DNA of 64,000 bases, from assembly GCA_016870095.1 (NCBI GenBank), contig VGCI01000003.1, forward strand, positions 78,607-142,606, read 5' to 3'. A program made the translations under genes and the position numbers. Shown piece by piece: positions 1-57,733 of this stretch. Below the pieces are notes generated by a model. The model saw nothing but the letters and a program-made list of their open reading frames with translations, searched no databases and was not told the origin of the DNA. The first letter of the stretch is position 1. Every line of letters begins with the position of its first letter. This DNA comes from Alphaproteobacteria bacterium. Lineage in GTDB: Bacteria > Pseudomonadota > Alphaproteobacteria > Paracaedibacterales > VGCI01.

Positions 1-1141
1 GAGCACCCGTTACACGTCTTATACGCGCTGATTCTATAAAATTTTCTGAGGTAATAACGCATTCCCTTACCCAATCAATCATTTCATTGGCATCCATAGT
101 TTGTGGAATACGTACACCGATGAGGATACTTCCTTCTTCCCATACATGAGGAAGCTTGTGATAAAATAACCGATCGTTTTGCAGAAAAGGGATTATGGAG
201 TATGTTTGCTCAATGCTTTGAATTATACGTTCCATCCACTCCAGAATTGGATTGATTGTATTGAAAATTTCATTATGTTTGTATGCAGAAAATGAGGGAA
301 TTGTTTGACTAAACCGTAAAGTTGCTAGGCGACCTGCAATCGTACATAAAGTTAAGTATAGATCGTAAGGGTGCGCCTTTCCCGTTCCGACAACAGCTTC
401 AAATAAAGGGAGAGATTCGGCAAGTGGCCTGAGCAATTCACCTGTTTCTCTTAAAATTTCACTGCCAATCTGATTTTGCCATTTCTCGATTAAGTAGGAA
501 GATTTTTCCCGCATTTTCAGGGCTAGGGATGCACAGCGAGTGCCTAGAGGAGAATTTTGATGAACCATAAAACAAGGCGGCATATACGGTGTCAAAAGAA
601 AAGCTTCATCCTGATAAATAATGCGCGCAAGAGGAATATATTCATACCGAGCTGGGGGGACAACGCCCATCACTAGAGCTATTTTTGGTAACAACCTTGG
701 AATCTGGATGATATTGTCGGGTGTATTTTCGTCTACGACTTCAGGACCATCGCTTGATGTATATCGAGGCCATTCTCCAATTACAGAGGAGCTTGTCCCT
801 GTTCGCTCTGGAACAACGAGATACAGGGTCATGGCTTCTTTTGAAAGATCTTCTTTTAAGGGAGTGAGATCTAGTTCTAAGGGAATTTCATTGTCACTAG
901 ATCGATTTACAATAAGTCCGTCTGGCATGACAGCTTCAATTTCTAGAACACGTATAAGTCCAGTACTTAAAACAACAGGATCAAGCTTAAAATGATGGAT
1001 GCCCCAATAAAAAGGAGTCAATCGATGCAAATGGTAGGACATGATTTGCTGATTACGCAATTCCATTTGCTGAAAATGTTGAGGGGATAATAGCATTCCT
1101 TCATGCCACTGAATTTCTGGTATTACAGGCGCTTTAGTCAT
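1..1141 (-). CDS. tssK: Type VI secretion system baseplate subunit TssK (ImpJ/VasE family). N-terminal ~380 aa only; the 3' part runs off the left edge of the window.
   Basis: Absent from the ORF track because it has no stop codon inside the window. My own minus-strand translation from the ATG at 1141..1139 gives MTKAPVIPEIQWHEGMLLSPQHFQQMELRNQQIMSYHLHR... I hand-checked the first ~60 codons. Openness to position 1 is inferred because no minus-strand ORF fragment is listed here. The W-x-EGM-x-L-x-PQHFQQ N-terminus and a later HPYDLYLTLCTIAGRLATL segment match TssK proteins as I remember them. The 621..995 + ORF is its antisense shadow. Confidence 0.8.
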   Translation of the reverse strand, partial: MTKAPVIPEIQWHEGMLLSPQHFQQMELRNQQIMSYHLHRLTPFYWGIHHFKLDPVVLSTGLIRVLEIEAVMPDGLIVNRSSDNEIPLELDLTPLKEDLSKEAMTLYLVVPERTGTSSSVIGEWPRYTSSDGPEVVDENTPDNIIQIPRLLPKIALVMGVVPPARYEYIPLARIIYQDEAFLLTPYMPPCFMVHQNSPLGTRCASLALKMREKSSYLIEKWQNQIGSEILRETGELLRPLAESLPLFEAVVGTGKAHPYDLYLTLCTIAGRLATLRFSQTIPSFSAYKHNEIFNTINPILEWMERIIQSIEQTYSIIPFLQNDRLFYHKLPHVWEEGSILIGVRIPQTMDANEMIDWVRECVITSENFIESARIRRVTGA

Positions 1142-1188
1142 CCTGTCATTCTCCCCTTTGCACAAGATGTTAAAAACATCTATTTAAA

Positions 1189-1281
1189 ATTTTACAAAAA
1201 TCCTTTCTTACTAGTATGAGCAGATTAATCAACTGAGACAAGGGTGTAAACTAAGGAAAGTGCATATTATTTTACAAAAAT
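1189..1281. repeat. 13-bp direct repeat ATTTTACAAAAAT, two copies (1189..1201 and 1269..1281) exactly 80 bp apart, in the region upstream of tssK
   Basis: Both copies read directly in the sequence. They lie in the 295-bp spacer between the skp stop and the tssK start. The function is unknown. Confidence 0.5.
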
Positions 1282-1436
1282 TTTTTATCATTTAATTGTG
1301 CTTAGCAAAAACAATTGCTTTTGCCAATATTGTGTTTAGGGAAAAGCGCCTATTTCCCTCAATTTTTGGCATAAGGTAATCAACAAACGATTAAAAAAAT
1401 AGTTTAGAGACTACACAAAAAGTTTGGGCTAATAAG

Positions 1437-2042
1437 TTACTTATCCAGCCGTTTGATGACTTCATCTGTGAGATCTAACCCATCATTACAGTAAAGAACA
1501 ATTGATTGATCCATTTGATTACCGTCGCCAATCGATGTATTCAAGATAATTTTTAAGTTCAAGGTTTTACCCAGATCATCTATAATCTCTTTGAGATCTT
1601 GTTTAATTTTTACGAGCCCACTTGTATATTCCTGATCTAACTCTTCTCGGCGACTTCGAACAATCTTTTCAAGCTCAGCAACCTTTTTATCAAATTCTGC
1701 CCGTTGTTTATGGTTTTCTTGAGTTGGCTCTTTACCTTCTTCATCACTTTTTTTAAATTGTTCGTACTCTGCGCTAAGTTTTGTTTCTCTTTGTAAAATT
1801 TCCTGATGAATTTTAGCATTCAGATTGTCTAAAGCATTTTTAAATTTTTGAAAAACTTTAGAGTTGGATTTTATGCGATTTATGTCCACAACACCTATGG
1901 ATATAGTGGTGGGAAATTTTGTATTTGTGCGTTTAAAAAGAGAAAAAGATGTGGATGGGAAATGACTCCCAATCCACATAAAAATTCCAGCGCTACATAG
2001 CAATACCAACAAAAATAATAAAATGTTCTTTCGCTGGGTCAT
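1437..2042 (-). CDS. skp: OmpH/Skp family periplasmic chaperone
   Basis: 201-aa ORF immediately downstream of bamA on the same strand. It has an N-terminal hydrophobic signal (ILLFLLVLLCSAGIFMW) and a K/E-rich helical body. bamA-skp adjacency is conserved in proteobacteria. Confidence 0.7.
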   Translation of the reverse strand: MTQRKNILLFLLVLLCSAGIFMWIGSHFPSTSFSLFKRTNTKFPTTISIGVVDINRIKSNSKVFQKFKNALDNLNAKIHQEILQRETKLSAEYEQFKKSDEEGKEPTQENHKQRAEFDKKVAELEKIVRSRREELDQEYTSGLVKIKQDLKEIIDDLGKTLNLKIILNTSIGDGNQMDQSIVLYCNDGLDLTDEVIKRLDK

Positions 2043-2063: not shown

Positions 2064-4331
2064 CTACCAGCGTGAGCTAAATCCAAACAGAAAGCGTTGT
2101 GTATCGTCATATTTCTCTCTCTTCACAGGGATTGCATAATCAATCTTTAGAGGTCCAAAAGGCGATGTCCAGGACAAACCGATACCAACTGAGGCACGAA
2201 TCGTTCGTCTATCGATAACTTGCGGACCTGTTTGGCCCGCTTTCCATGTTGTACCGAAGTCAGTAAATATGGCACCTTTGACGCCAAATTCATTGGGAAG
2301 ACCAATTGGGAAAAGGGTTTCAATAGTACCTGTCCAGGATCGCGTGCCTCCCATAGGGTCTCTTGTAATACTATCTCGTGGTCCAATACCACCCCAGGCA
2401 AATCCGCGGAAGGAATCTGCACCTAATTGAATACTATCCACAATACGAATAGGCTTTTTGCCCGCGCGTAATATTGCTGAAACGTTACCTCTTACGTTGA
2501 TAACAACATCTTCAATAGGTGAATAAAACCATGTTGCGCCAATAGAATTCTTTAGGAAGTTTACTTTTCCTCCTAGACCTGCATACTGGTTACTTAAGCT
2601 TAAGAGATAGCCAGAGGTTGGATCAATACGACTATCACGTCGATCATATGCCAAGGTTTGCCCCACAGCTGATGTTACGAACTTTCCAGCTTGCTGTTTA
2701 ATGATGGCAGAGGCATCATTTGCAATATGAGAAATATGATCATTTTTTAAGGTGTAAGTGAGAGTTTGGCCCAAATATTCCGTAATAGAATAAGCAATAT
2801 GGGGTGAAAAACCATTTGTCGATGAAATAAAGTGTGACAGACGCGTTGAGCGCAGACGGAATAGATCTATACCGGCTTCAAGATTGTAACCTAGGAAATA
2901 GGGATCTGTGATACCTACATCATATTCTTGTGCGCGACGAGCAAGAGTAACGTTCGCATGAACAATTCGTCCTGTTCCCATAAAATTCCGCTCAGCGAAT
3001 TTAACGTTACCCAAAATACCATCAAGGGTTGAGAAACCAGCGGCAACACCCATTTCACCAGTTGGCTGCTCCTCAAGTTTGACCACGAGGCGCGCCTTAT
3101 CTGGTGCTGTGCCTTGTTCTGTCTGAATCTCAGATTTTTTGAAATAACCTAAGTCTTTTAAGTTCTTCTCGGCTTTCTTAAGTTTTGTTGAGTTATAGGC
3201 ATCACCTTCGAGCATACCCAGTTCGCGTCGAATAACTTCGTCACGGGTGCGATCGTTCCCAACGACATCAATACGCTCAATATAGACTCGAGGACCTTCC
3301 CGAACTTCGAAGATGAGATCGATAGTTTTCTTTTCCCTATTTTTTTCAATTCGGGGTTGAATATCAGCAAATGCATATCCGTAGGTGCCGACATGGGTAT
3401 TAAGAGAGGTAACATTACGTTCAATTTGTTTGCGAGAAAACTTAGCGCCACTTTGGATGTCGACAAGCGTCTTTAGTTCTTCGGCATTAACTTGTTTAAG
3501 GTGAGATATTACGTCAATTTTACCAAAAGTGTAAAGCTCACCTTCATCTACGGTAAAAGTAAGATAGAAGTCTTTATGATCTGGGCTCAATTCCGCAACG
3601 GCAGAAACTAATCGATAGTCCGGATATCCCATATCAAAATAATATTGTTGAAGATTTTGTTGATCAGCTGTGAAACGATCCGGGTCAAAGGTATCATCGC
3701 TTGCCCACAAACGGAACCAACGTGCCCGTTTTGTAAACAGCTGCTCTTCTAATCGTGATGAAGAGAAGTGCTTATTCCCAATAAAATTTATTTTGCGAAC
3801 ATAGGTGACTTCGCCTTCATTAATTTCAAAAACCAAATCAACACGATTTTCTTCTAAACGGATAACTTTAGGTTCAACCGTTGCATCAAATCGTCCCATA
3901 CGACGATAAATTTCTAAAATACGTTGTTGAGCAGCTTGAATCTTTGTGCGGGAAAGAACTTCCCGTGGGCGCAATTGAATTTCCTCAGTTAGTTTATCTT
4001 CTTTCAATTTTGAATTGCCCTCAAAAGAAATACGGTTAATTAGGCTATTTTCCGTAACTTCAACGAGCAAACCATTATTCTGACGATGAATTTTAACGTC
4101 AGCAAAATAACCTGTGGCAAAGAGATCTTTTAATGCTTGATTCAGTTGAATATCGTCGAAAGAATCTCCAACCTTAAGGGGTAAGTTAGAAATAACTGTT
4201 TCTGATTCAATACGTTTGTTGCCAGTTACTTGTATCCCTTGAATGGTATTGGCAAACGCAGAAGATGCGAGAGTTGTGGTGACCAAGAAACCTGTTGCAA
4301 AAGACTTTATTGTTTTGGTTGCTGAAAGCAT
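2064..4331 (-). CDS. bamA: Outer membrane protein assembly factor BamA
   Basis: 755 aa with a signal peptide ending SSAFA. A POTRA-repeat region is followed by a beta-barrel ending in the aromatic terminus FGFSSRW. It sits between rseP and skp. Confidence 0.95.
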   Translation of the reverse strand: MLSATKTIKSFATGFLVTTTLASSAFANTIQGIQVTGNKRIESETVISNLPLKVGDSFDDIQLNQALKDLFATGYFADVKIHRQNNGLLVEVTENSLINRISFEGNSKLKEDKLTEEIQLRPREVLSRTKIQAAQQRILEIYRRMGRFDATVEPKVIRLEENRVDLVFEINEGEVTYVRKINFIGNKHFSSSRLEEQLFTKRARWFRLWASDDTFDPDRFTADQQNLQQYYFDMGYPDYRLVSAVAELSPDHKDFYLTFTVDEGELYTFGKIDVISHLKQVNAEELKTLVDIQSGAKFSRKQIERNVTSLNTHVGTYGYAFADIQPRIEKNREKKTIDLIFEVREGPRVYIERIDVVGNDRTRDEVIRRELGMLEGDAYNSTKLKKAEKNLKDLGYFKKSEIQTEQGTAPDKARLVVKLEEQPTGEMGVAAGFSTLDGILGNVKFAERNFMGTGRIVHANVTLARRAQEYDVGITDPYFLGYNLEAGIDLFRLRSTRLSHFISSTNGFSPHIAYSITEYLGQTLTYTLKNDHISHIANDASAIIKQQAGKFVTSAVGQTLAYDRRDSRIDPTSGYLLSLSNQYAGLGGKVNFLKNSIGATWFYSPIEDVVINVRGNVSAILRAGKKPIRIVDSIQLGADSFRGFAWGGIGPRDSITRDPMGGTRSWTGTIETLFPIGLPNEFGVKGAIFTDFGTTWKAGQTGPQVIDRRTIRASVGIGLSWTSPFGPLKIDYAIPVKREKYDDTQRFLFGFSSRW

Positions 4332-4347
4332 TATTTCTACCCTTTAT

Positions 4348-5451
4348 TTATTTCAGTATGAGACGAACAACATCATTCCATGTGGACATGAGCATGACAC
4401 TTACGACTATCGCTAACCCAGCCATGAAAGCATATTCTTGTATCTTTTCTGGAACAGGTTTGCCGCGAATGGCTTCAATGCCATAAAATAAGAGATGTCC
4501 CCCATCAAGAACGGGAATGGGGAGAAGATTGATAAGACCTAAATTAATTGATAAGAAAGCCATGAAGACTAAAAGAGCGGCGATACCCCCTTTAGCACTT
4601 TTCCCAGCCATGTCTCCGATGGATAAAAGGCCGCCTAATTCTTCAGAAGATCGTTTTCCGACAAGCATCTGCCCAATGCCTGTAAGGGCTTCAACGCAAG
4701 TTGTCCATGTTTTTTCAACAGCATGGGTGACGGCTGTTAGGGGATTAACTTTATGGTATTCGGGAAGGGAAGGTTTAATGCCTATCACACCAATAGGTTT
4801 TTGATTGCCTGCAGCATCGGTTTCAACCATTTTAATTTGAATAGTTTGCTCAGCACCATCTCGTGTAAAGCGGACGTCTACATCTTTCCCTTTGTTATTG
4901 ATAATGAGATCCCGCAAATCATAAAAATCTTTTGCGACAATACCATTAAGGCTTATCAGTTTATCTCCAGCCTTGAGGCCTGATTTTTCTGCAATTTTTC
5001 CGGGGACAACTTCGCCGATTACCGCTGGAAGAATGGGTTCACCTTTTATGACAAATAAAGCAGAGAATATGGCGATGGCAAATAGGAAATTTGCCATAGG
5101 TCCAGCTACTGCTACAGCCATGCGTTGCCCAACTCTCTTGCTATGGAGACTCATAGATTTTTCTTCTGAGTTCATTTTCTCTAAAGAGTTAGCGTCAGGA
5201 CGGCTACTCGCATCTGCGTCTCCAAAGAAACGAACATAGCCACCTAACGGAATTGCGCTTATTTTCCAACGTGTACCGGCGCTGTCATTCCATCCAAACA
5301 ACTCAGGTCCAAATCCAATAGAGAAGACTTCAATCTTAACTTTATTATAACGGGCGATAAGATAGTGACCAAGTTCGTGAACAAATACAAGGATTGTTAG
5401 TACAATGAGAAAGGGAATCACATGTTGGGCAAAACTAAGCAGTGAGGTCAT
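4348..5451 (-). CDS. rseP: RIP zinc metalloprotease RseP
   Basis: HELGHY zinc motif in the first TM segment (VHELGHYLIA). Central PDZ-like region and a C-terminal NLLPIPVLDGGH motif. Confidence 0.92.
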   Translation of the reverse strand: MTSLLSFAQHVIPFLIVLTILVFVHELGHYLIARYNKVKIEVFSIGFGPELFGWNDSAGTRWKISAIPLGGYVRFFGDADASSRPDANSLEKMNSEEKSMSLHSKRVGQRMAVAVAGPMANFLFAIAIFSALFVIKGEPILPAVIGEVVPGKIAEKSGLKAGDKLISLNGIVAKDFYDLRDLIINNKGKDVDVRFTRDGAEQTIQIKMVETDAAGNQKPIGVIGIKPSLPEYHKVNPLTAVTHAVEKTWTTCVEALTGIGQMLVGKRSSEELGGLLSIGDMAGKSAKGGIAALLVFMAFLSINLGLINLLPIPVLDGGHLLFYGIEAIRGKPVPEKIQEYAFMAGLAIVVSVMLMSTWNDVVRLILK

Positions 5452-5530: not shown

Positions 5531-6691
5531 CTAGAAGGCAATTTTTTTGTGAATAACTTTTAAAGCTTCATTGCGAGCTTGTTGATCTATTTGTAAAACT
5601 TCATCAAGAGACCCTAAACGTGACTCGGGCATTTTTTCTAAAACTTCTCGGGAAATATTGACAATATCAAGGTAAGAAATTTTTTCTTCAACAAAAGCCT
5701 GTACGGCAATTTCATTTGCAGCATTAAGAACTGTAGGGCGGTCCCTTCCTATTTTTAAAGCTTGTCTTGCTAACAGAATTGCGGGAAATTTATTGGTATC
5801 CGGCTGCTCGAAAGTAAGCTGCCCAATTGAGGGTAAATCCAATCGTGGAAGATCTGTTTTGATGCGATTTGGCCAGGCGAGAGTATAAGCAATAGGAACG
5901 CGCATATCATGAATACCAAGCTGAGCAAGAACGGAACCATCTTGAAAGGAAAGTAAGGAATGTACGATGGATTGAGGGTGAATCAATATATCAATCTGCT
6001 CTTCAGAAAATCCAAAAATATAGGAAGCTTCAATCATTTCCAATCCTTTGTTCATTAAATTTGAACAATCGATGGTAACTTTTGGCCCCATAGCCCAGTT
6101 GGGGTGCTTTAAAGCTTGCGCAACGGTTACTGCTTTCATTTCCTGCACAGACAGCGTTCGAAAAGGGCCACCTGAGGCCGTTAAAATTAATTTTTCCACA
6201 TAGGAACGATGCGGCTCATGGAAGACTTGAAAAATTGCATTATGCTCTGAATCAACCGGTAAGAGTGTGGCGTTATGATCTTTTATGGCTTTAAGCATTA
6301 CAGGGCCTGCGGAAATCATGGACTCTTTATTGGCTAAAGCAATAATAGCTCCTCGCTCAATAGCCGCATATGTGGGTCGTAATCCTGCTGTTCCCACAAT
6401 CGCAGACATGACCCATTGGGCAGGGGCTTGTGCCGCTTCAATGACAGCCGCCTTTCCTGCAGCAACAGTTATTCCTGTTCCCCCCAAGGCATTTTTCAAA
6501 TTTATATATTGAGATTCGTCTTCTACAACCGCTAGTTTGGCTTTCAGAATCTTACTTTGGGCTGCAAGTGTCCCCACATCTTTTTGGGCAACCAGTGCTT
6601 CAACAGTAAATTGTTCCGGATTTTTTGATAGAAGGTCAACGGTACTCCTCCCAATTGAGCCAGTACTCCCTAAAATCGTAATGGAGCGCAT
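5531..6691 (-). CDS. dxr: 1-deoxy-D-xylulose 5-phosphate reductoisomerase
   Basis: 386 aa with the N-terminal ITILGSTGSIGRST nucleotide-binding motif and LPVDSEHNAIFQ. It occupies the conserved position between cdsA and rseP. Confidence 0.95.
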   Translation of the reverse strand: MRSITILGSTGSIGRSTVDLLSKNPEQFTVEALVAQKDVGTLAAQSKILKAKLAVVEDESQYINLKNALGGTGITVAAGKAAVIEAAQAPAQWVMSAIVGTAGLRPTYAAIERGAIIALANKESMISAGPVMLKAIKDHNATLLPVDSEHNAIFQVFHEPHRSYVEKLILTASGGPFRTLSVQEMKAVTVAQALKHPNWAMGPKVTIDCSNLMNKGLEMIEASYIFGFSEEQIDILIHPQSIVHSLLSFQDGSVLAQLGIHDMRVPIAYTLAWPNRIKTDLPRLDLPSIGQLTFEQPDTNKFPAILLARQALKIGRDRPTVLNAANEIAVQAFVEEKISYLDIVNISREVLEKMPESRLGSLDEVLQIDQQARNEALKVIHKKIAF

Positions 6692-6703: not shown

Positions 6704-7522
6704 TCAAAAAAGCTTAAAAAATTTGAGGCCGACAAAGAAAATGGCCACCAGTAAGAGACTGTCAATTCGATCTAAAAGCCCCCCGTGGCCAGGTATAATA
6801 TGACTAGAATCTTTAACTTTGAAAAGCCGTTTAGCGGCTGATTCTAAGATATCTCCTGTGTGACCCACGAATGTCGTCAATAGTGTCAGACAAAAGAGTA
6901 TGGCTTGGCTTTTTATCCCCAATTCGCAATAAGGAGCAAGAGTTATCCCTATAGCCGTGCCGAGCATAGATCCTCCCATAAATCCGGACCATGTTTTCCC
7001 CGGACTAATGGTGGGGACCAATTTTGCTCCTCCCACAAGGCTTCCTACAACATAAGCGCTAATATCCGTTGTCCAAACAATTATGAGGGCCCATAACAAA
7101 GTAAGAGGGGTGAATTTTGCCAGATTTAAGATAGCTATCATTCCCAGACCAATATAAAGAGGTCCTGAAAGAAGTATTAGCGATGGGATGAGTCTGGTAC
7201 CTAAGCGTTTGTGATAATAAAGAATAAATCCAAAGCCCCCCAGTGTGAAACAAAAAGGAATGACAAAACTGCCTGTTCCCATGATAGCCCACATCATTAG
7301 AAGACTGACAAGAAGATTAATGGGGTGCGTTAAGGGTAGGCCAGACATTTTTGACCATTCCCATAAAAGAATACCCAGTAAAAAGATAGTCAAAATATCA
7401 ACGTAAGGGGATCCGAGGAGGACCGCACCAATTACCAGGGGCCCCCCAATGGCGGTTGATAATGTACGTTTTCCAAAATTACTCTGGTCAAAACTACTTT
7501 TTGGAGGCGATAACTGCACCAT
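6704..7522 (-). CDS. cdsA: Phosphatidate cytidylyltransferase
   Basis: Multi-TM protein with the C-terminal signature SAAKRLFKVKDSSHIIPGHGGLLDRIDS. The longest ORF starts at 7609, inside uppS. I prefer the ATG at 7522 (MVQLSPP...), but the start is uncertain. Confidence 0.85.
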   Translation of the reverse strand: MVQLSPPKSSFDQSNFGKRTLSTAIGGPLVIGAVLLGSPYVDILTIFLLGILLWEWSKMSGLPLTHPINLLVSLLMMWAIMGTGSFVIPFCFTLGGFGFILYYHKRLGTRLIPSLILLSGPLYIGLGMIAILNLAKFTPLTLLWALIIVWTTDISAYVVGSLVGGAKLVPTISPGKTWSGFMGGSMLGTAIGITLAPYCELGIKSQAILFCLTLLTTFVGHTGDILESAAKRLFKVKDSSHIIPGHGGLLDRIDSLLLVAIFFVGLKFFKLF

Positions 7523-8252
7523 AACGACGCTCTCTTTGTTGATAGGTTTCAAGGGCTTGATCAAAATCTTCGGGTGAAAAATCTGGCCACAGTGTAGGTG
7601 AAAACACAAATTCTGTATATGCCATTTGCCACAAAAGGAAATTACTTATTCTTTTTTCACCGCTGGTCCGAATCAGCAAATCTGGATCTGGAATCTCTGT
7701 TGTATAAAGGTTATGACTGAAAATATCTGTGGAGATCTCTTCTACCTTTAATGTACCTGCTTTGACTTGCTCGGCAAGCTTTTTTGCTGTGCTGACGATT
7801 TCATCACGACCACCATAACTGAGAGCCATTATAAGTGTGATTCGGTTGTTTTCCTTTGTGAGGTCTTCGCTATCTTCGATAAGTTTTACTATATCATCGG
7901 GAAGTTTTGTCCGGTCGCCAATGACTTTTAAACGAACACCATTCTCAGCTAAATCCTTAACTTGATTTTTTAAGTTATAACGCAATAGTCCCATAAGTTC
8001 ATCCACCCAACCTTGAGGGCGCAGCCAATTTTCAGCAGAGAAAGCATAAAGGGTTAAATAAGCAATGCCGCGCGAAGCCGCATGATGCACAATTTTACGT
8101 GTCACCTCAGCACCTTTGCGGTGGCCTGATATGGTGGACACACTATTTTTATCCGCCCAACGACCATTTCCATCCATAATAATGGCAACGTGTCGAGGGA
8201 GTGGCGAGCGGGCTATTGCCTCAATATGTGTTTGTGTCAAAGTTTCAGGCAT
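7494..8252 (-). CDS. uppS: Undecaprenyl (isoprenyl) diphosphate synthase
   Basis: HVAIIMDGNGRWA motif, a RTSGEKRISNFLLWQ motif, and a C-terminal ERRYG. Confidence 0.95.
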   Translation of the reverse strand: MPETLTQTHIEAIARSPLPRHVAIIMDGNGRWADKNSVSTISGHRKGAEVTRKIVHHAASRGIAYLTLYAFSAENWLRPQGWVDELMGLLRYNLKNQVKDLAENGVRLKVIGDRTKLPDDIVKLIEDSEDLTKENNRITLIMALSYGGRDEIVSTAKKLAEQVKAGTLKVEEISTDIFSHNLYTTEIPDPDLLIRTSGEKRISNFLLWQMAYTEFVFSPTLWPDFSPEDFDQALETYQQRERRYGAVIASKK

Positions 8253-8406
8253 AACCCTTACAAACCATTAAGAACATTTTTAAAACTATACCTATAAAGC
8301 ATGCTTTTGAATCACTCGTCAATGAAAAGGCAATTGTTTCCTTATCTTTTCTGGAGTAAATGTAAGAAGAAACAAATTCGGTCATGTGAATTAAGAGAAA
8401 ATCCTG

Positions 8407-9177
8407 ATGAAATCTAAAACCAAAATAGGAATCTCAGCGATCGTTGTTTTTATAGCTGCCACAAGCTTATATATATATCCCATTTTCTTGAGCCAACCCC
8501 TGCCATCCGTATTGGTAAAAAAACAACTTTTCGCATCGGCCTTGTCCCCGCAAAGTATTTGGAGTCAAAAGTTTTTAGACCGCAATCCGTTGGTAAAGAG
8601 TAAAATTATTCAATTTGAAGCGGGCACTATATGTCAGAATTTAAAGACATTAAATACAAAATTATTGACTCATGAACAAATTTCTAATGAATTGAAAAAT
8701 AGGGGATATATTTGTGTTTCGCGTCCCTTATCTGTCAATCCGAAAGCACCCATTAAAAAGTATTTGAAGATTGATAAAACCATCACAGAAAATCCAGAGG
8801 AGTCGGGAGTGGCTTACCAGGAAGTTTGTTATGATGCGGCACAACGGGAATGTGTAATTCGAATCAAGCGGGATGGTTTTCCCTTGAACAGGCGATCCAA
8901 TCCTCATTCGTCAAAAGCGGTGTTGTTGGATGCTGAGGCGGATCCAGCGAGTTATGAAAATGAGGCTTTTAAGATTGGGGGAGACGGGCAAGCCATTCCC
9001 AAAGGGCCCCATAAATTTGGCTTGAAGAAGTGCCCTTATAAAATTAGCCAGAATCAAAATTATACAGCGTTATGTGAGGAATGGGTTGATCTCATTATGG
9101 AGCAAGCTCACCCAACTCTGAGGGAGCCAAAGAGGACGCAGAATTTATCTATCAAAACCGTGACGAAAGCCAAATAG
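8407..9177 (+). CDS. Hypothetical membrane-anchored or exported protein; no family recognised
   Basis: 256-aa ORF with one N-terminal hydrophobic segment (IGISAIVVFIAATSLYIYPIFL) and six scattered Cys. Its 3' end overlaps the convergent coq7 by 26 nt. Confidence 0.5.
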   Translation: MKSKTKIGISAIVVFIAATSLYIYPIFLSQPLPSVLVKKQLFASALSPQSIWSQKFLDRNPLVKSKIIQFEAGTICQNLKTLNTKLLTHEQISNELKNRGYICVSRPLSVNPKAPIKKYLKIDKTITENPEESGVAYQEVCYDAAQRECVIRIKRDGFPLNRRSNPHSSKAVLLDAEADPASYENEAFKIGGDGQAIPKGPHKFGLKKCPYKISQNQNYTALCEEWVDLIMEQAHPTLREPKRTQNLSIKTVTKAK

Positions 9178-9736
9178 CTGTTCGAGATATTTTTTTAATG
9201 GTTGAGGTTAAGAACTGATATGCTGGGGCGTCATGTCCCCCAAGTTCGATGGCTGTCTCTTTGTGTGCTATCTCATCTTGCCGACATTCTTCAATAAGGG
9301 TGATTAAAGCGTCATGATGATCTGTTGTTTTTTTTAATTCCTTCAATTGGCTTTGATAATGCTCAGCTATAACTTCTTCAACGGCAATCGTGCAGGCATG
9401 GGCGGCTTTCTCGCCTATGATGGCTGTAATCATCCCAAGAGCATACCCACCGACATGCCACAGAGGTTGTAAAATTGTCGGGCGGACTTGGTTTTCTATT
9501 ATAAGGCGGTTAAATTTTTGTAAATGCTCTGCTTCTTCAGCGGCCATTGCAGTCAAGCTTTCCTCTGCAGGCGTATCTTTTAAAATGGCAAGTTGTCCTG
9601 CATAAATTCTCGAAGCTCCATATTCACCAGCTTGATTAACCCGGATCATTGACTTGATTTCGCTAGAGATTTCGACTGTACGATCGTTTTGTCTTGTCGA
9701 TGATATGATCTGAGGGGGTGTTTTCCTTGAATTCAT
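9152..9736 (-). CDS. coq7: Demethoxyubiquinone hydroxylase (Coq7 family di-iron hydroxylase)
   Basis: RVNQAGEYGASRIYAGQLAIL matches the Coq7 N-terminal signature. Repeated E..H carboxylate motifs are present (EEAEH, DEIAH). Confidence 0.85.
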   Translation of the reverse strand: MNSRKTPPQIISSTRQNDRTVEISSEIKSMIRVNQAGEYGASRIYAGQLAILKDTPAEESLTAMAAEEAEHLQKFNRLIIENQVRPTILQPLWHVGGYALGMITAIIGEKAAHACTIAVEEVIAEHYQSQLKELKKTTDHHDALITLIEECRQDEIAHKETAIELGGHDAPAYQFLTSTIKKISRTAIWLSSRF

Positions 9737-10102
9737 AGCTTAATTAATTCCTTTAACGATAACTCTTAAGGTGACTATATCAGAGAATTAATTGGTTAAG
9801 GACTTAGATTTTTGTAGAAATTTTTAACAGGAAAATTACGGGGCTAATTTTTTTATTTTTTTTATCATAGCCCCTGGCTATTAGATAATCCAAAAGCCAA
9901 TTCGGTTGCAATGATAATTGTATAATTATGAATTAGAAAACGCTTAAAATGAAAGAATAATTTTATATAAGACTTAAATAACTTATTGAAAATAAATGAT
10001 AAAAATAGTAAAAAAATTGAATTTGCGACAAAAGATCACACTCACTTTATTGATGATCATTTATAACTGAAATGAAGATTTTCGTGAAGACAAAACCATT
10101 TT

Positions 10103-11905: not shown

Positions 11906-13161
11906 GCGATTTTACTCAAATAGTGTTGAGTCAAAATTTTTCCTTCTTCAACGGCGGGTTGGTCGAAAGGGTTTACGCCCAAAAGATGAGACATTGCAAG
12001 GGTTTCAAGAATATAATGCATCATCAATCCTCCCAAAGTTTTGGCGTCCAATTTTTCAAGTTCAATGACGCGCGTTGGGCATTTGTGACGTCGCAAAGTA
12101 TCGATGGTGGCTTTTTGTTCAGCCATCATTAAATTGCCCATTGATTTTCCCTGAAAAAGATCTACGGCTGGATGCCCTACGGGAGGTATTGCTATTTTAA
12201 ATATGTCATCAAAATGGTTTAACGTAATAAGGGTATAGACTTTATCACGGGGTCCATCTAGATAAAGTTGGAGTTGTGAATGCTGATCGACAGTTCCTAA
12301 AGCTTGAATGGGTGTAATGCCTTGAGCATTATTAGCCTTATCTTTTTTTCCTAAACTTTCTGCCCACAGTTGTCGAAACCACAAGGAGAAAGTGTTGAGT
12401 CGATCTATATAAGGCATCATTACAGTTTGAGTGATTCCCTCCTGGCTTAAACGTATATGTGCAAGAGCTCCCTGAAGAATTTGGCACTCTTGTGTATTAA
12501 TTGCTGCTAAATTAGAATTCAAAATATCACGGGCACCATTTCGTATCTCTTTTGCATTTACACCCGCAATAAGGGCGGGTAGCATTCCCACAACGGTAAA
12601 TACAGCAAAACGCCCCCCGATATTTGTCGGGTGATCTAAGCAAGCAATGTTGTAGGCAGTTGCCAATTGACGAATACCATTTTCAAAAGGTTCGCTGATG
12701 ACAACAAAACAATCTTTAATAATTTTTTCATAACCTAAATCAACCCAATATTGCAGGCAAACTAAGAGTTGCATTAATGTTTCAGCGGTATTGCCTGATT
12801 TCGAAATGGCAATGATACCGGTCTTGGAGGGATCGATTTTATTGAGAGAATTTTTAAAAGTATGGGGATCAATATTGTCTAGGAAATGAAATCTCGGAAT
12901 ACATTTGTTGGCATCTCTTAAGCAAAGAAGGGTTTGCCCTCCTAAGCTAGATCCTCCCGTTCCCAAAATGAAAATATCTTCGAAATTCTGAAATTGATCG
13001 ACTACAGGCTTTAATTGGGACAATAAATCATCAGATTGTAGTTCAATAAATAAGGGGAGGGTTGCATTGAGTGTTTGCAAATAGGATAAAGTTTCCGGAG
13101 CTTCTTCTAGAGAAGGGATTCCATCTAGGTTTTGGGTGAACAAAGTATTTTGCAAAATCAC
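11902..13161 (-). CDS. pgi: Glucose-6-phosphate isomerase (short form)
   Basis: Motifs ISKSGNTAETL, NIGGRFAVF and VNPFDQPAVEEGK correspond to the PGI signatures. 419 aa. Confidence 0.85.
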   Translation of the reverse strand: MILQNTLFTQNLDGIPSLEEAPETLSYLQTLNATLPLFIELQSDDLLSQLKPVVDQFQNFEDIFILGTGGSSLGGQTLLCLRDANKCIPRFHFLDNIDPHTFKNSLNKIDPSKTGIIAISKSGNTAETLMQLLVCLQYWVDLGYEKIIKDCFVVISEPFENGIRQLATAYNIACLDHPTNIGGRFAVFTVVGMLPALIAGVNAKEIRNGARDILNSNLAAINTQECQILQGALAHIRLSQEGITQTVMMPYIDRLNTFSLWFRQLWAESLGKKDKANNAQGITPIQALGTVDQHSQLQLYLDGPRDKVYTLITLNHFDDIFKIAIPPVGHPAVDLFQGKSMGNLMMAEQKATIDTLRRHKCPTRVIELEKLDAKTLGGLMMHYILETLAMSHLLGVNPFDQPAVEEGKILTQHYLSKIA

Positions 13162-55152: not shown

Positions 55153-55300
55153 CATAGCTTTTTTCCAATGAATCTCTCCCCTTTTTTGTTTAAAATACAA
55201 GCTCATGTGTGATATGGTTTTGACAGTTTTAAAGTAACGCAAAAGTTACCCTAGGTGTGGTGAAAAGACTGATAATTTGAGCAAGGGGATATCCATAAAA

Positions 55301-56320
55301 ATGGCTGACGAACGTTTCTATCAAAAATCTGGACCTTACACTGTACAGGATATTGCCGTCATTTGTGGAATTGAATTAACTCCAAATGTAGATGGCAATC
55401 AAGTTATTACAGATGTTTCTCCTTTGCATAAAGCTGGTTTTGGGCATATTAGTTGTTTTCATAACCCCAAATATCTAGAGCAATTTAAAGTTACAAAAGC
55501 TTCGGTATGTTTGGTGGCATCTGAGTATGCTAAATATGCCCCTAAAAACCTTGTCGTGCTGATAACCCCCAAGCCATACCGGGCTTATGGACAGGTAGCA
55601 GCCCTTTTTTACCCTCCTATTAAGAAAATGGGGGGGATTTCATCTCAAGCAGCAATTCATTCGACTGCAAAAATAGGCAAAAATTGTTATATTGGTCCTT
55701 TTGCCGTCATTGAGGAAAATGTTCAGATTGGTGATGGTTGCGAAATTGGTGCCAATTCTTTTATTGAAGCAAATGTTGAACTGGGTGCTGAATGCAGAAT
55801 TTCCACACATGTTTCCATAAGCCATGCGCTGCTCGGAAAGCGGGTAGTCGTGAAATCTGGTGCTCGAATTGGTCAAAAAGGTTTTGGTTTTCATATGGAT
55901 GAAGATGGCCACTTAAATATTCCCCAACTTGGACGTGTTGTTATTGGTGATGATGTAGAAATTGGTTCAAATACGACAATTGATAGAGGAGCAGAAACAG
56001 ATACGTTTATCGGATGCGGCACACGAATTGATAATCTTGTCCAAATTGCTCACAATGTACAAATTGGTGAAAATTGTGTTATCGTTGCCCAATGTGGAAT
56101 TGCAGGGAGTACGCAGCTCGGTAGGTTCGTTATTGCTGCAGGTCAAGTTGGTATTGCGGGTCACCTTGTTATTGGTGATGGAGTCAAAATTGCAGCAAAA
56201 AGCGGTGTCTACAGCAATATTGAAAAAGGTCTGACTGTTGGTGGCTTCCCAAGTATACCTATTCGAGATTGGCATCGTCAAAGCGTGGCATTAAAAAAAC
56301 TTGTTAATAAGGGAAAATAA
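55301..56320 (+). CDS. lpxD: UDP-3-O-acylglucosamine N-acyltransferase
   Basis: Left-handed beta-helix hexapeptide repeats (IGDGCEIGANSFI, IGDDVEIGSNTTIDRG) and LpxD-type length. ATG at 55301 is preferred over the TTG at 55277. Confidence 0.92.
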   Translation: MADERFYQKSGPYTVQDIAVICGIELTPNVDGNQVITDVSPLHKAGFGHISCFHNPKYLEQFKVTKASVCLVASEYAKYAPKNLVVLITPKPYRAYGQVAALFYPPIKKMGGISSQAAIHSTAKIGKNCYIGPFAVIEENVQIGDGCEIGANSFIEANVELGAECRISTHVSISHALLGKRVVVKSGARIGQKGFGFHMDEDGHLNIPQLGRVVIGDDVEIGSNTTIDRGAETDTFIGCGTRIDNLVQIAHNVQIGENCVIVAQCGIAGSTQLGRFVIAAGQVGIAGHLVIGDGVKIAAKSGVYSNIEKGLTVGGFPSIPIRDWHRQSVALKKLVNKGK

Positions 56321-56326
56321 AGAAAA

Positions 56327-56830
56327 ATGACTCAATCTTCTGTTATCATTCATAATTTTCAAAAGGAAGATCAAACCATGAAAGATGTAAAGTCTTCTAA
56401 CGTTGCTCATATCGAAGAAATAATGTCTCTTATTCCGCATCGTTACCCCATGCTACTCATCGATCGCGTTGAGGACATTGAACCCGGAGAGTCGGCGGTA
56501 GGAGTTAAAAATGTTTCATTAAATGAATGGTATTTTCAAGGACATTTCCCTGGCAGGCCGATATTGCCAGGTGTATTAATCGTTGAAGCTATGGCGCAAA
56601 CTGCTGCTGTCGCAGTCATGAGAAATATCAGTGGAAATGATAAAAGTGTTTTCTTTATGTCTATTGATGAAGCTAAATTTCGCAAACCCGTCGTCCCGGG
56701 AGATGTCTTAAAATTAAAAGTTACAAAAGAAAGAAGTCGGGGTACTGTTTGGAAATTTAAAGGTGAAGCTACCGTTGATGGCACATTAGTTGCTGAAGCT
56801 AGTGTTACAGCAATGATTGGGGATAAGTAA
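56327..56830 (+). CDS. fabZ: 3-hydroxyacyl-ACP dehydratase FabZ
   Basis: [14 protein letters not shown] and [22 protein letters not shown] motifs. The start may be the internal Met at 56378. Confidence 0.93.
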
Positions 56831-56932
56831 CACTTTGTAACATTCCATTGTTTGCCCTCAATTCATTGTTGAGACATCCTATATATATGCAACAAATTCA
56901 CTGCCCTCATTTTACTATTGGGAACTGTTATT

Positions 56933-57733
56933 ATGAATCAAATTCATCCTTCTGCAATTATTGATAGCAAAGCTCAACTGGGCACAGGAATAGAAATTGG
57001 TCCATTTTGTTATGTAGGACCTGAAGTTATTATTGGTGATAATGTTCATTTAGTCTCGCATGTTACGATTTCTGGGCGAACAGAGATCGGGGCGAATTGT
57101 AAGTTTTATCCTTTTTCCTCCATTGGTCATTACCCCCAAGATTTAAAATATAATGGTGAACCTTCGCAGCTTTTTATTGGGGTGAATAATACTATTCGCG
57201 AGTATGTGACCATCCAGCCAGGAACAGAAGGGGGAGGCATGGTTACAAAAGTTGGTGATAATAATCTATTTATGGCTTCTGCCCATGTCGCTCACGACTG
57301 TCGAGTCGGAAATAACGTCATTATGGCAAATTGTGCAACCTTAGGAGGACACGTCACCCTTGAAGATTATGCTTTCGTTGGAGGTTTAGCCGCTGTTCAT
57401 CAATTTGTCCGCGTTGGGGCACATTCCATTATTGGTGGTTTGTCTGCTGTTGTGCAGGATGTCATTCCCTATGGACATGTAAAAGGAGAGCGGGCCCATC
57501 TTGCTGGGCTCAATTTAGTTGGGCTAAAGCGTCGAGGTTTTTCAACGGCAACTATTCAAGAACTTCGCAGTGCTTACGACGATTTATTTGATGTCGCTAC
57601 ACCATCTTTATCAGAGCGAATTGAGGTTGTTGCAAAGAAATATACTCAAAATGAAGACGTTATGCAACTTATTGGGTTTATCAAACAAGAGTCTCGCCGA
57701 AGTCTTTGTTTACCTGAATCTATGGCAGGTTAA
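56933..57733 (+). CDS. lpxA: Acyl-ACP--UDP-N-acetylglucosamine O-acyltransferase
   Basis: MNQIHPSAIID N-terminus, hexapeptide repeats and a C-terminal helical domain. The track start at 56918 is five codons upstream. Confidence 0.93.
   Translation: MNQIHPSAIIDSKAQLGTGIEIGPFCYVGPEVIIGDNVHLVSHVTISGRTEIGANCKFYPFSSIGHYPQDLKYNGEPSQLFIGVNNTIREYVTIQPGTEGGGMVTKVGDNNLFMASAHVAHDCRVGNNVIMANCATLGGHVTLEDYAFVGGLAAVHQFVRVGAHSIIGGLSAVVQDVIPYGHVKGERAHLAGLNLVGLKRRGFSTATIQELRSAYDDLFDVATPSLSERIEVVAKKYTQNEDVMQLIGFIKQESRRSLCLPESMAG

What the first reader, a model, noticed from the sequence alone, without database searches (positions are those of the whole stretch)
1..1141. Unlisted partial T6SS baseplate gene (tssK) directly abutting the bamA-skp envelope operon
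The ORF track shows only a spurious plus-strand ORF here. The minus strand, however, is one open frame from the ATG at 1141 to the window edge, and it has the TssK hallmark N-terminus IQWHEGMLLSPQHFQQ. tssK appears to be the first gene of a leftward transcription unit. The rest of a T6SS locus (tssL/M, sheath, Hcp/VgrG, effectors) is therefore expected just outside the window. As far as I recall, canonical T6SS loci are not commonly reported in Rickettsiales/Holosporales-type intracellular bacteria, which would make it noteworthy in this apparently host-associated AT-rich alphaproteobacterium. It also sits exactly where lpxD would normally follow skp.
Basis: partly seen in the sequence, partly recalled or inferred. 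Interest (0 to 1): 0.6.

Follow-up and report, generated by a model that had tools for sequence, protein, structure and literature searches.

The report
Known split type VI secretion operon
The unlisted gene is a real, intact tssK that heads the tssK-tssL-tssM-tssA piece of a type VI secretion system whose other genes lie at four other places in the genome, a layout already published for this group of protist-associated bacteria (Holosporales), so the finding is correct but ordinary.

Summary
Observation confirmed. The minus strand from ATG 1141 to the window edge is one open frame. It scores as TssK (TIGR03353 210 bits, cut-off 100) and its predicted fold matches solved TssK structures. In the assembly the gene is complete (452 aa) and under strong purifying selection (dN/dS 0.04).

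Left of the window lie only tssL, tssM and tssA, followed by housekeeping genes. tssB-tssC-hcp-hcp-tssE, tssF-tssG, clpV and vgrG-DUF4280 sit on four other contigs. Twelve of 13 core genes are present; TssJ was not found.

The claim that T6SS is unusual here is wrong. TssK is present in 62 of 62 genomes of the order. Midha et al. 2021 (PMC8163844) describe exactly this dispersed layout, and a 2025 review (PMC11909080) calls the T6SS near-universal in Holosporales. Base composition and the TssK tree argue against recent horizontal acquisition.

The skp-tssK adjacency is a local rearrangement seen in only part of the genus. lpxD-fabZ-lpxA lie at 55277-57733 of the same window.

This scan has already reported the same module in at least 13 other genomes. 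The only new detail is a genus-conserved, promoter-like 65-nt block upstream of tssK.

The parts
1..1141 (-). 5' 84% of tssK (codons 1-380 of 452). The last 218 nt, stop codon included, lie left of the window at G000:C3:78389-78606.
   Evidence: open frame, PF05936 132.6 bits, TIGR03353 210 bits. AlphaFold model with pLDDT 83.5 whose top 15 PDB fold matches are all TssK; dN/dS 0.04 against the closest relative.
621..995 (+). Spurious antisense ORF (124 aa) inside tssK
   Evidence: One search lists it. It has no Pfam hit and lies wholly within the conserved tssK frame.
1142..1436 (.). 295-nt AT-rich spacer between the skp stop and the tssK start. It has GGGGAG 9 nt before ATG 1141, and a GGGAAA...TTTCCC hairpin at 1338-1359 just after skp.
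   Evidence: The spacer cannot be aligned among genus members except for the block listed in the next entry.
1186..1249 (-). Genus-conserved promoter-like block, TTACACCCTTGTCTC-N6-TAATCTGCTCATACTAG-N-AAGAAAGGATTTTTGTAAAATTTT. Candidate -35 TTGTCT, 17-nt spacer, candidate -10 CATACT, then a conserved leader. It spans -45 to -108 from the ATG.
   Evidence: near-invariant in 7 same-genus loci; also present in the closest relative L090; unique in the genome; the consensus scan did not call it, so the promoter reading is inference from conservation.
1437..2042 (-). skp (OmpH family), last gene of the uppS-cdsA-dxr-rseP-bamA-skp envelope cluster
   Evidence: PF03938, 74.6 bits
2064..4331 (-). bamA
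   Evidence: TIGR03303, 753.8 bits
4348..8252 (-). rseP (4348-5451), dxr (5531-6691), cdsA (6704-7609), uppS (7494-8252)
   Evidence: Peptidase_M50, DXP reductoisomerase, CTP_transf_1, Prenyltransf
55277..57733 (+). lpxD (55277-56320), fabZ (56327-56830), lpxA (56918-57733): the half of the ancestral cluster that usually follows skp, here 54 kb away on the other strand
   Evidence: PF04613 LpxD plus Hexapep, FabA, Acetyltransf_11 plus Hexapep

Best explanation
The frame is the 5' part of an intact tssK gene. TssK is the trimeric baseplate subunit of a type VI secretion system (T6SS). It links the TssE-F-G wedge to the cytoplasmic parts of the TssL-TssM membrane complex.

The gene heads a four-gene operon, tssK-tssL-tssM-tssA, with an 8-nt gap, a 4-nt overlap and a 1-nt overlap between successive genes. 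This operon is one of five separate loci that together encode a TssJ-less T6SS in an uncultured Paracaedibacter/Finniella-like member of the Holosporales (genome 1.8 Mb, 40% GC).

This dispersed arrangement is the ancestral, published layout of the group. It has been inherited vertically and is kept under purifying selection.

The position directly behind bamA-skp is a rearrangement confined to part of the genus. It separated skp from lpxD-fabZ-lpxA. tssK most likely keeps its own promoter, the conserved block at 1186-1249.

Shown here: gene identity, intactness, fold, selection, gene inventory and distribution. Inferred from work on E. coli and other T6SSs: that TssK docks the baseplate to TssL/TssM. 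Inferred only: that the machine fires a VgrG/DUF4280-MORN spike into the protist host or into competing bacteria.
For: - Identity: sequence matches to PDB TssK 6n38, 5mwn, 6giy, 5m30, 5y0e; fold matches, TM-score up to 0.80 on the target, C-terminal head matched to 5m2y.
- Operon: (DotU/TssL 98 bits with a C-terminal hydrophobic anchor; TssM IcmF-related_N 151 bits; TssA TIGR03363 226 bits).
- Other loci: tssB and tssC; two hcp-like genes with an Hcp fold; tssE; tssF and tssG; clpV TIGR03345 1120 bits, above the cut-off of 885; vgrG 579 bits; DUF4280-MORN.
- Selection: dN/dS 0.040 at dS 0.44.
- Vertical descent: TssK in 62 of 62 genomes, 10 families and 20 genera; tssK-L-M(-A) conserved in every family sampled; families monophyletic on the TssK tree and the query inside its genus at 100% support; GC of the operon at the 36th percentile of genome windows.
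- Literature: PMC8163844 and PMC11909080.
- Own promoter.
Against:
- The promoter-like block falls below the consensus scan's threshold.
- TssJ was not found with TIGR03352 or PF12790.
- TssM matches the TssM models only in its N-terminal third (TIGR03348 194 bits, below the cut-off of 388; IcmF_C only 13 bits at residues 1312-1383). Assembly of the membrane complex may therefore differ from the E. coli model.
- Activity, targets and effectors are untested.
Confidence: 0.9

Rival explanations
1. tssK is a decaying remnant of a lost T6SS.
For: TssJ was not detected. The T6SS genes are scattered among housekeeping genes.
Against: The frame is a full 452 aa with no stops and dN/dS is 0.04. Twelve of 13 core genes are intact and score above curated cut-offs or match the expected fold. 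The same scattered set is kept in all 62 genomes of the order.
Confidence: 0.01
2. The tssKLMA block is a recently acquired horizontal island inserted between skp and lpxD.
For: It interrupts a widely conserved bamA-skp-lpxD synteny. Five genomes of the order do carry a second, canonical-type TssK that looks acquired.
Against: GC is 0.3995 against 0.402 for the genome. The gene belongs to the order-wide TssK clade, nested in its own genus and family. The block is present in every family at varying chromosomal sites. No integrase, tRNA or repeat boundary was seen among the flanking ORFs.
Confidence: 0.03
3. tssK-A are co-transcribed with uppS...bamA-skp by read-through. T6SS membrane-complex genes would then be part of the envelope-biogenesis operon rather than a separate unit.
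For: The genes share a strand. The only hairpin after skp (1338-1359) has no T-run on the minus strand. The junction is kept in the closest relative and in three other genus members.
Against: The spacer is 295 nt with a conserved promoter-like block that is also present in genus members where skp is not upstream (L017, L018, L019). In other families tssK has quite different upstream genes such as parB or mutS.
Confidence: 0.12
4. The machine is assembled but non-canonical. With no TssJ and an unusually long, divergent periplasmic TssM, it either anchors in the outer membrane differently or does not span it.
For: (no TssJ). (TssM of 1492 aa with only N-terminal family matches). The review calls the Holosporales system 'probably non-standard' (PMC11909080).
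Against: This does not compete with the tssK assignment. TssJ-like genes have been proposed in relatives (PMC8163844; earlier scan note e1-2719213), so a very divergent TssJ may have been missed here.
Confidence: 0.5

Closest known systems
Dispersed T6SS of Holosporales (Ca. Bodocaedibacter vickermanii, Paracaedibacteraceae, Caedimonadaceae; Midha et al. 2021, PMC8163844; review by Castelli and Petroni 2025, PMC11909080)
   Same: The modules [tssK-tssL-tssM-tssA], [tssB-tssC-hcp] and [tssG-tssF] are the same, and vgrG is paired with a MORN/YwqK-type gene. There is no recognisable TssJ. The genome is small, about 40% GC and host-associated. TssK falls in the same clade.
   Different: In this genus the module sits directly behind bamA-skp. 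hcp is duplicated in tandem and tssE follows it. The MORN repeats are fused into the DUF4280 tip protein downstream of vgrG rather than forming a separate upstream ywqK gene.
TssK of enteroaggregative E. coli Sci-1 T6SS (PDB 5M30, 5MWN, 6GIY, 6N38)
   Same: It has the same three-part fold: an N-terminal beta-sandwich shoulder, a helical neck and a C-terminal head. The N-terminal W-x-E/D-G...P-Q-x-F-Q-Q motif is conserved.
   Different: Sequence identity is only 15-20%. E. coli Sci-1 is a single contiguous cluster with TssJ and a TssM of about 1130 aa (my own knowledge, not tested here). In this genome the system is split and TssM is 1492 aa.
Canonical single-locus proteobacterial T6SS, as expected by TXSScan/SecReT6
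   Same: The core parts list is the same: TssA, B, C, D, E, F, G, H, I, K, L and M.
   Different: The genes are not in one locus, TssJ was not found, and no PF05488 PAAR protein is present (DUF4280 takes its place). Five other genomes of the order carry such a canonical second system, but this genome does not.

Membership tests
TssK (TIGR03353 / PF05936) | Scores above the curated cut-offs of the family models | tested here: met
   TIGR03353 210 bits (cut-off 100) for the window part. PF05936 132 bits (cut-off 23.4).
TssK (TIGR03353 / PF05936) | Three-domain TssK fold: shoulder, neck, head | tested here: met
   AlphaFold2 model with pLDDT 83.5. The Foldseek top 15 PDB hits are all TssK, E down to 1e-22 and TM on the target up to 0.81. 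The head domain matches 5m2y with probability 1.0.
TssK (TIGR03353 / PF05936) | Encoded together with other T6SS core genes, especially tssL and tssM | tested here: met
   tssL, tssM and tssA lie directly downstream with an 8-nt gap or overlaps.
TssK (TIGR03353 / PF05936) | Forms trimers that bind TssF/G and the cytoplasmic domains of TssL/TssM | not testable with these tools
   Needs biochemistry or complex modelling. It is inferred only from homology to E. coli TssK.
Complete T6SS (13 core components TssA-TssM) | All 13 core genes present in the genome | tested here: not met
   Twelve were found. TssJ was not found with TIGR03352 or PF12790 in a genome that is 99% complete.
Complete T6SS (13 core components TssA-TssM) | Tube protein Hcp present (reported as apparently lacking in Holosporales by PMC11909080) | tested here: met
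   Two tandem 199-aa paralogues give weak PF05638 scores of 28.1 and 20.3 bits. The predicted fold matches Hcp structures 1y12, 7fcf and 4tv4 with TM on the target up to 0.81.
Holosporales dispersed T6SS (Midha et al. 2021) | Separate conserved modules [tssK-L-M-A], [tssB-C-hcp], [tssG-F] and [ywqK-vgrG] | tested here: met
   The modules lie on contigs C3, C7, C4 and C9, and clpV on C8. The ywqK equivalent is the MORN-containing DUF4280 gene downstream of vgrG, so that module matches only loosely.
Holosporales dispersed T6SS (Midha et al. 2021) | TssK belongs to the lineage's own TssK clade (vertical descent) | tested here: met
   Tree of 66 TssKs: the query sits inside its genus (100%), the families of the order are monophyletic, and the clade is distinct from the canonical clade (99%). 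TssK is present in 62 of 62 genomes.

The most novel reading that the evidence does not exclude
In this genus the T6SS membrane-complex operon has been captured behind the bamA-skp outer-membrane-biogenesis operon. It is controlled by a genus-specific cis element, the invariant 65-nt block at 1186-1249, possibly together with read-through from skp. Assembly of a TssJ-less, long-TssM secretion machine would then be coupled to envelope biogenesis.
Probability: 0.08. Interest if true: 0.35.

Novelty: already known. Interest (0 to 1): 0.12.

Why it matters
It matters little beyond correct annotation. The window's ORF track missed a real gene, and the genome does encode a near-complete T6SS. The T6SS is the leading candidate for host interaction in Holosporales symbionts of protists.

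Both the presence of the system and its split layout were already published. This scan has also met the same tssKLMA module in at least 13 other genomes.

Three details may be useful to specialists:
- fold-level confirmation that the weakly scoring hcp-like genes really are Hcp;
- the absence of any recognisable TssJ alongside a 1492-aa TssM;
- a conserved promoter-like block that could guide expression studies.

Tried and rejected
- Looked for a full T6SS locus left of the window. Only tssL, tssM and tssA are there, then housekeeping genes.
- Searched for PAAR (PF05488), Tox-PAAR-like (PF13665) and TssJ (TIGR03352, PF12790). None was found. DUF4280 was found instead.
- Asked whether the conserved upstream block is a shared regulatory motif of the five T6SS loci. 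There is no second copy in the genome at up to 2 mismatches, and no shared 10-mer among the five upstream regions.
- Ran Rfam on 1-2100. Nothing relevant came up.
- The consensus promoter scan did not call the conserved block.
- Tested the lead from earlier notes that a SPOR or TssJ-like gene precedes tssK. In this order the genes upstream of tssK vary and none is of that kind.
- Searched the PDB by sequence with TssM and with Hcp-like 2. There were no meaningful hits, so Hcp was tested by fold instead.

Full report
**Observation**

Translating window 1141->1 on the minus strand gives 380 residues without a stop. It begins MTKAPVIPEIQWHEGMLLSPQHFQQ. The ORF listing shows the frame running off the window, and the only plus-strand ORF there (621-995) is antisense to it and has no family match.

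The fragment scores 132.6 bits on Pfam PF05936 (cut-off 23.4). It scores 210 bits on the NCBIfam equivalog TIGR03353, 'type VI secretion system baseplate subunit TssK' (cut-off 100).

**The whole gene**

The window is G000:C3:78607-142606 in a 1.80-Mb, 15-contig assembly that is 99% complete. In the contig the frame continues for 218 nt to a stop, giving a 452-aa protein. That is the length of most close homologues, which cover 100% of it.

- It matches solved TssK chains by sequence: 6n38, 5mwn, 6giy, 5m30 and 5y0e.
- An AlphaFold2 model built on 34 homologues has mean pLDDT 83.5.
- The 15 best PDB fold matches of that model are all TssK. The TM-score on the target reaches 0.80-0.81 for shoulder plus neck, and the C-terminal head matches 5m2y.
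- Against the closest relative (96% amino-acid identity, Logan contig from SRR24115979), dN/dS is 0.040 at dS 0.44.

The gene is therefore intact and under strong purifying selection.

**What lies left of the window**

- tssL: DotU, 98 bits, with a C-terminal hydrophobic anchor. It starts 8 nt after the tssK stop.
- tssM: 1492 aa, IcmF-related_N 151 bits. It overlaps tssL by 4 nt.
- tssA: TIGR03363, 226 bits. It overlaps tssM by 1 nt.
- An 11-bp GC-rich hairpin abuts the tssA stop.

Beyond that come two unconserved small ORFs, a CBU_0592-family membrane protein, lpxC, an MFS transporter, prmC and the housekeeping clpB (TIGR03346, 1373 bits). The 'rest of the locus' is therefore not next door.

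**The rest of the system**

Family searches of the whole genome found the remaining core genes at four other places, each embedded among housekeeping genes:

- C7: tssB, tssC, hcp-like, hcp-like and tssE, between ftsW/rodA and nrdR.
- C4: tssF and tssG, between dnaQ and nfuA.
- C8: clpV, TIGR03345 1120 bits against a cut-off of 885.
- C9: vgrG followed by a DUF4280 protein carrying MORN repeats.

The two hcp-like genes are 71% identical to each other. They barely register on PF05638, with scores of 28.1 and 20.3 bits. A model with pLDDT 70 nonetheless matches Hcp structures, with TM on the target up to 0.81.

No TssJ was found with either model, and no classical PAAR protein. That makes twelve of 13 core components.

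TssM matches its family models only in the N-terminal third. There is a sub-threshold IcmF_C signal at residues 1312-1383.

**Who carries it**

The closest TssKs come from MAGs labelled Ca. Finniella sp. or Alphaproteobacteria bacterium (71-76% in the genome-contig loci, up to 78% among the protein hits). Ca. Odyssella, Ca. Paracaedibacter symbiosus, Ca. Finniella inopinata and Holosporales MAGs follow at about 40-50%.

- In the order as held here, 62 of 62 genomes (10 families, 20 genera) have a TssK above the cut-off.
- In an even sample of the class, 44 of 201 genomes do.
- tssK-tssL-tssM, usually with tssA, is contiguous in every family sampled. In one family tssA is divergent, lying upstream on the other strand.
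- On a tree of 66 TssKs the query sits inside its genus (100%). The families of the order are each monophyletic.
- The order-wide type forms a clade separated at 99% support from canonical TssKs. The canonical clade includes second copies carried by five genomes of the order, but not by this one.
- The operon's GC (0.3995) equals the genome's (0.402).

I found no evidence for recent horizontal origin.

**Literature**

Midha et al. [quoted passage not shown]

The 2025 review calls the T6SS conserved in almost all Holosporales genomes except Holospora. It also calls it probably non-standard, for apparent lack of two components (PMC11909080).

Earlier reports of this scan reached the same verdict on the same module in at least 13 other genomes.

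**The junction with skp**

uppS-cdsA-dxr-rseP-bamA-skp run leftward and end at 1437. lpxD-fabZ-lpxA are at 55277-57733 on the plus strand, so the usual cluster is split.

- skp-tssK adjacency is found in the closest relative and in L016, L020/L021 and L051.
- It is not found in L017, L018 and L019 of the same genus.
- It is not found in any other family, where the upstream genes differ.

It is a local rearrangement, not a feature of the system.

**Transcription**

The 295-nt spacer cannot be aligned within the genus, with one exception. A near-invariant block, TTACACCCTTGTCTC-N6-TAATCTGCTCATACTAG-N-AAGAAAGGATTTTTGTAAAATTTT, lies at window 1186-1249 on the minus strand.

The block can be read as -35 TTGTCT, a 17-nt spacer, -10 CATACT and a conserved leader. 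It is present even where skp is not upstream. It is unique in the genome and shares no motif with the other T6SS loci.

**Mechanism**

By homology to the E. coli system, a TssK trimer would join the TssE-F-G wedges around the VgrG hub to the cytoplasmic faces of TssL and TssM. TssA would then prime polymerisation of the Hcp tube and the TssB/C sheath, and ClpV would recycle the contracted sheath.

The target is not shown. It could be host membrane or cytosol, or rival bacteria. The MORN-bearing tip protein and the intracellular lifestyle of relatives make a host target the more likely guess.

**Verdict**

It is wrong on locus completeness and on novelty. The finding is already known and of low interest.

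Noticed in passing
window 1186-1249 (minus strand): A block of about 65 nt upstream of tssK is near-invariant in 7 same-genus genomes, while the rest of the spacer is unalignable. It reads as a sub-consensus sigma-70-type promoter plus leader. It is unique in the genome. The 13-bp repeat copy at 1189-1201 lies inside it. The second copy at 1269-1281 is conserved only in the closest relative.
   Followed up: partly
L002:12961-17439 (G000:C3:72961-77439, minus strand): TssM is 1492 aa, against a TIGR03348 model length of 1168. Only the N-terminal third matches TssM models, and there is a 13-bit IcmF_C signal at residues 1312-1383. It ends in a Lys/Glu/Pro/Ala-rich tail. Only one strongly hydrophobic segment (residues 10-44) was found. 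Together with the missing TssJ, this suggests a differently built membrane complex.
   Followed up: partly
L009:11200-11799 and 12118-12717 (G000:C7): Two tandem hcp-like genes are 71% identical. Each has a disordered N-terminal extension of about 30 residues. They are nearly invisible to Pfam and NCBIfam, but the fold is clearly Hcp. This fills the 'missing' tube protein noted in the 2025 review.
   Followed up: yes
G037:C9:29744-31051, G006:C20:8373-9680, G027:C34:11866-13179, G028:C8:77908-79221, G031:C24:13730-15037: Five genomes of the same order carry a second TssK of the canonical type (354-406 bits on TIGR03353). These copies cluster with TssKs of large-genome Alphaproteobacteria, so they probably belong to a separately acquired second T6SS. 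Their gene neighbourhoods were fetched (L040-L044) but not annotated.
   Followed up: partly
L039 (G000:C8:78001-92000): 3923-4543(+), 4597-4902(+), 8065-8637(+), 8764-9858(-): clpV stands alone, flanked on both sides by four ORFs (101-364 aa) with no Pfam match. They may be lineage-specific T6SS accessory or effector genes.
   Followed up: no
L002:10493-10987 (minus strand) and L002:9949-10215 (minus strand): Downstream of tssA lies a 164-aa ORF with a signal-peptide-like N-terminus and a basic, Q/R/N-rich, probably disordered body. It is not conserved in relatives. After it comes an 88-aa CBU_0592-family membrane protein that is conserved downstream of tssA in two relatives (L017, L019).
   Followed up: partly
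L002:11548-11573: An 11-bp GC-rich perfect hairpin directly abuts the tssA stop codon and faces a convergent small ORF. It is probably a bidirectional terminator closing the tssKLMA unit.
   Followed up: no
L038:6978-7952 (G000:C9, minus strand): The gene after vgrG combines DUF4280 (a PAAR-like tip domain) with MORN_2 repeats in one 324-aa protein. It corresponds to the separate ywqK gene described next to vgrG in relatives. An earlier report of this scan already treats it.
   Followed up: partly
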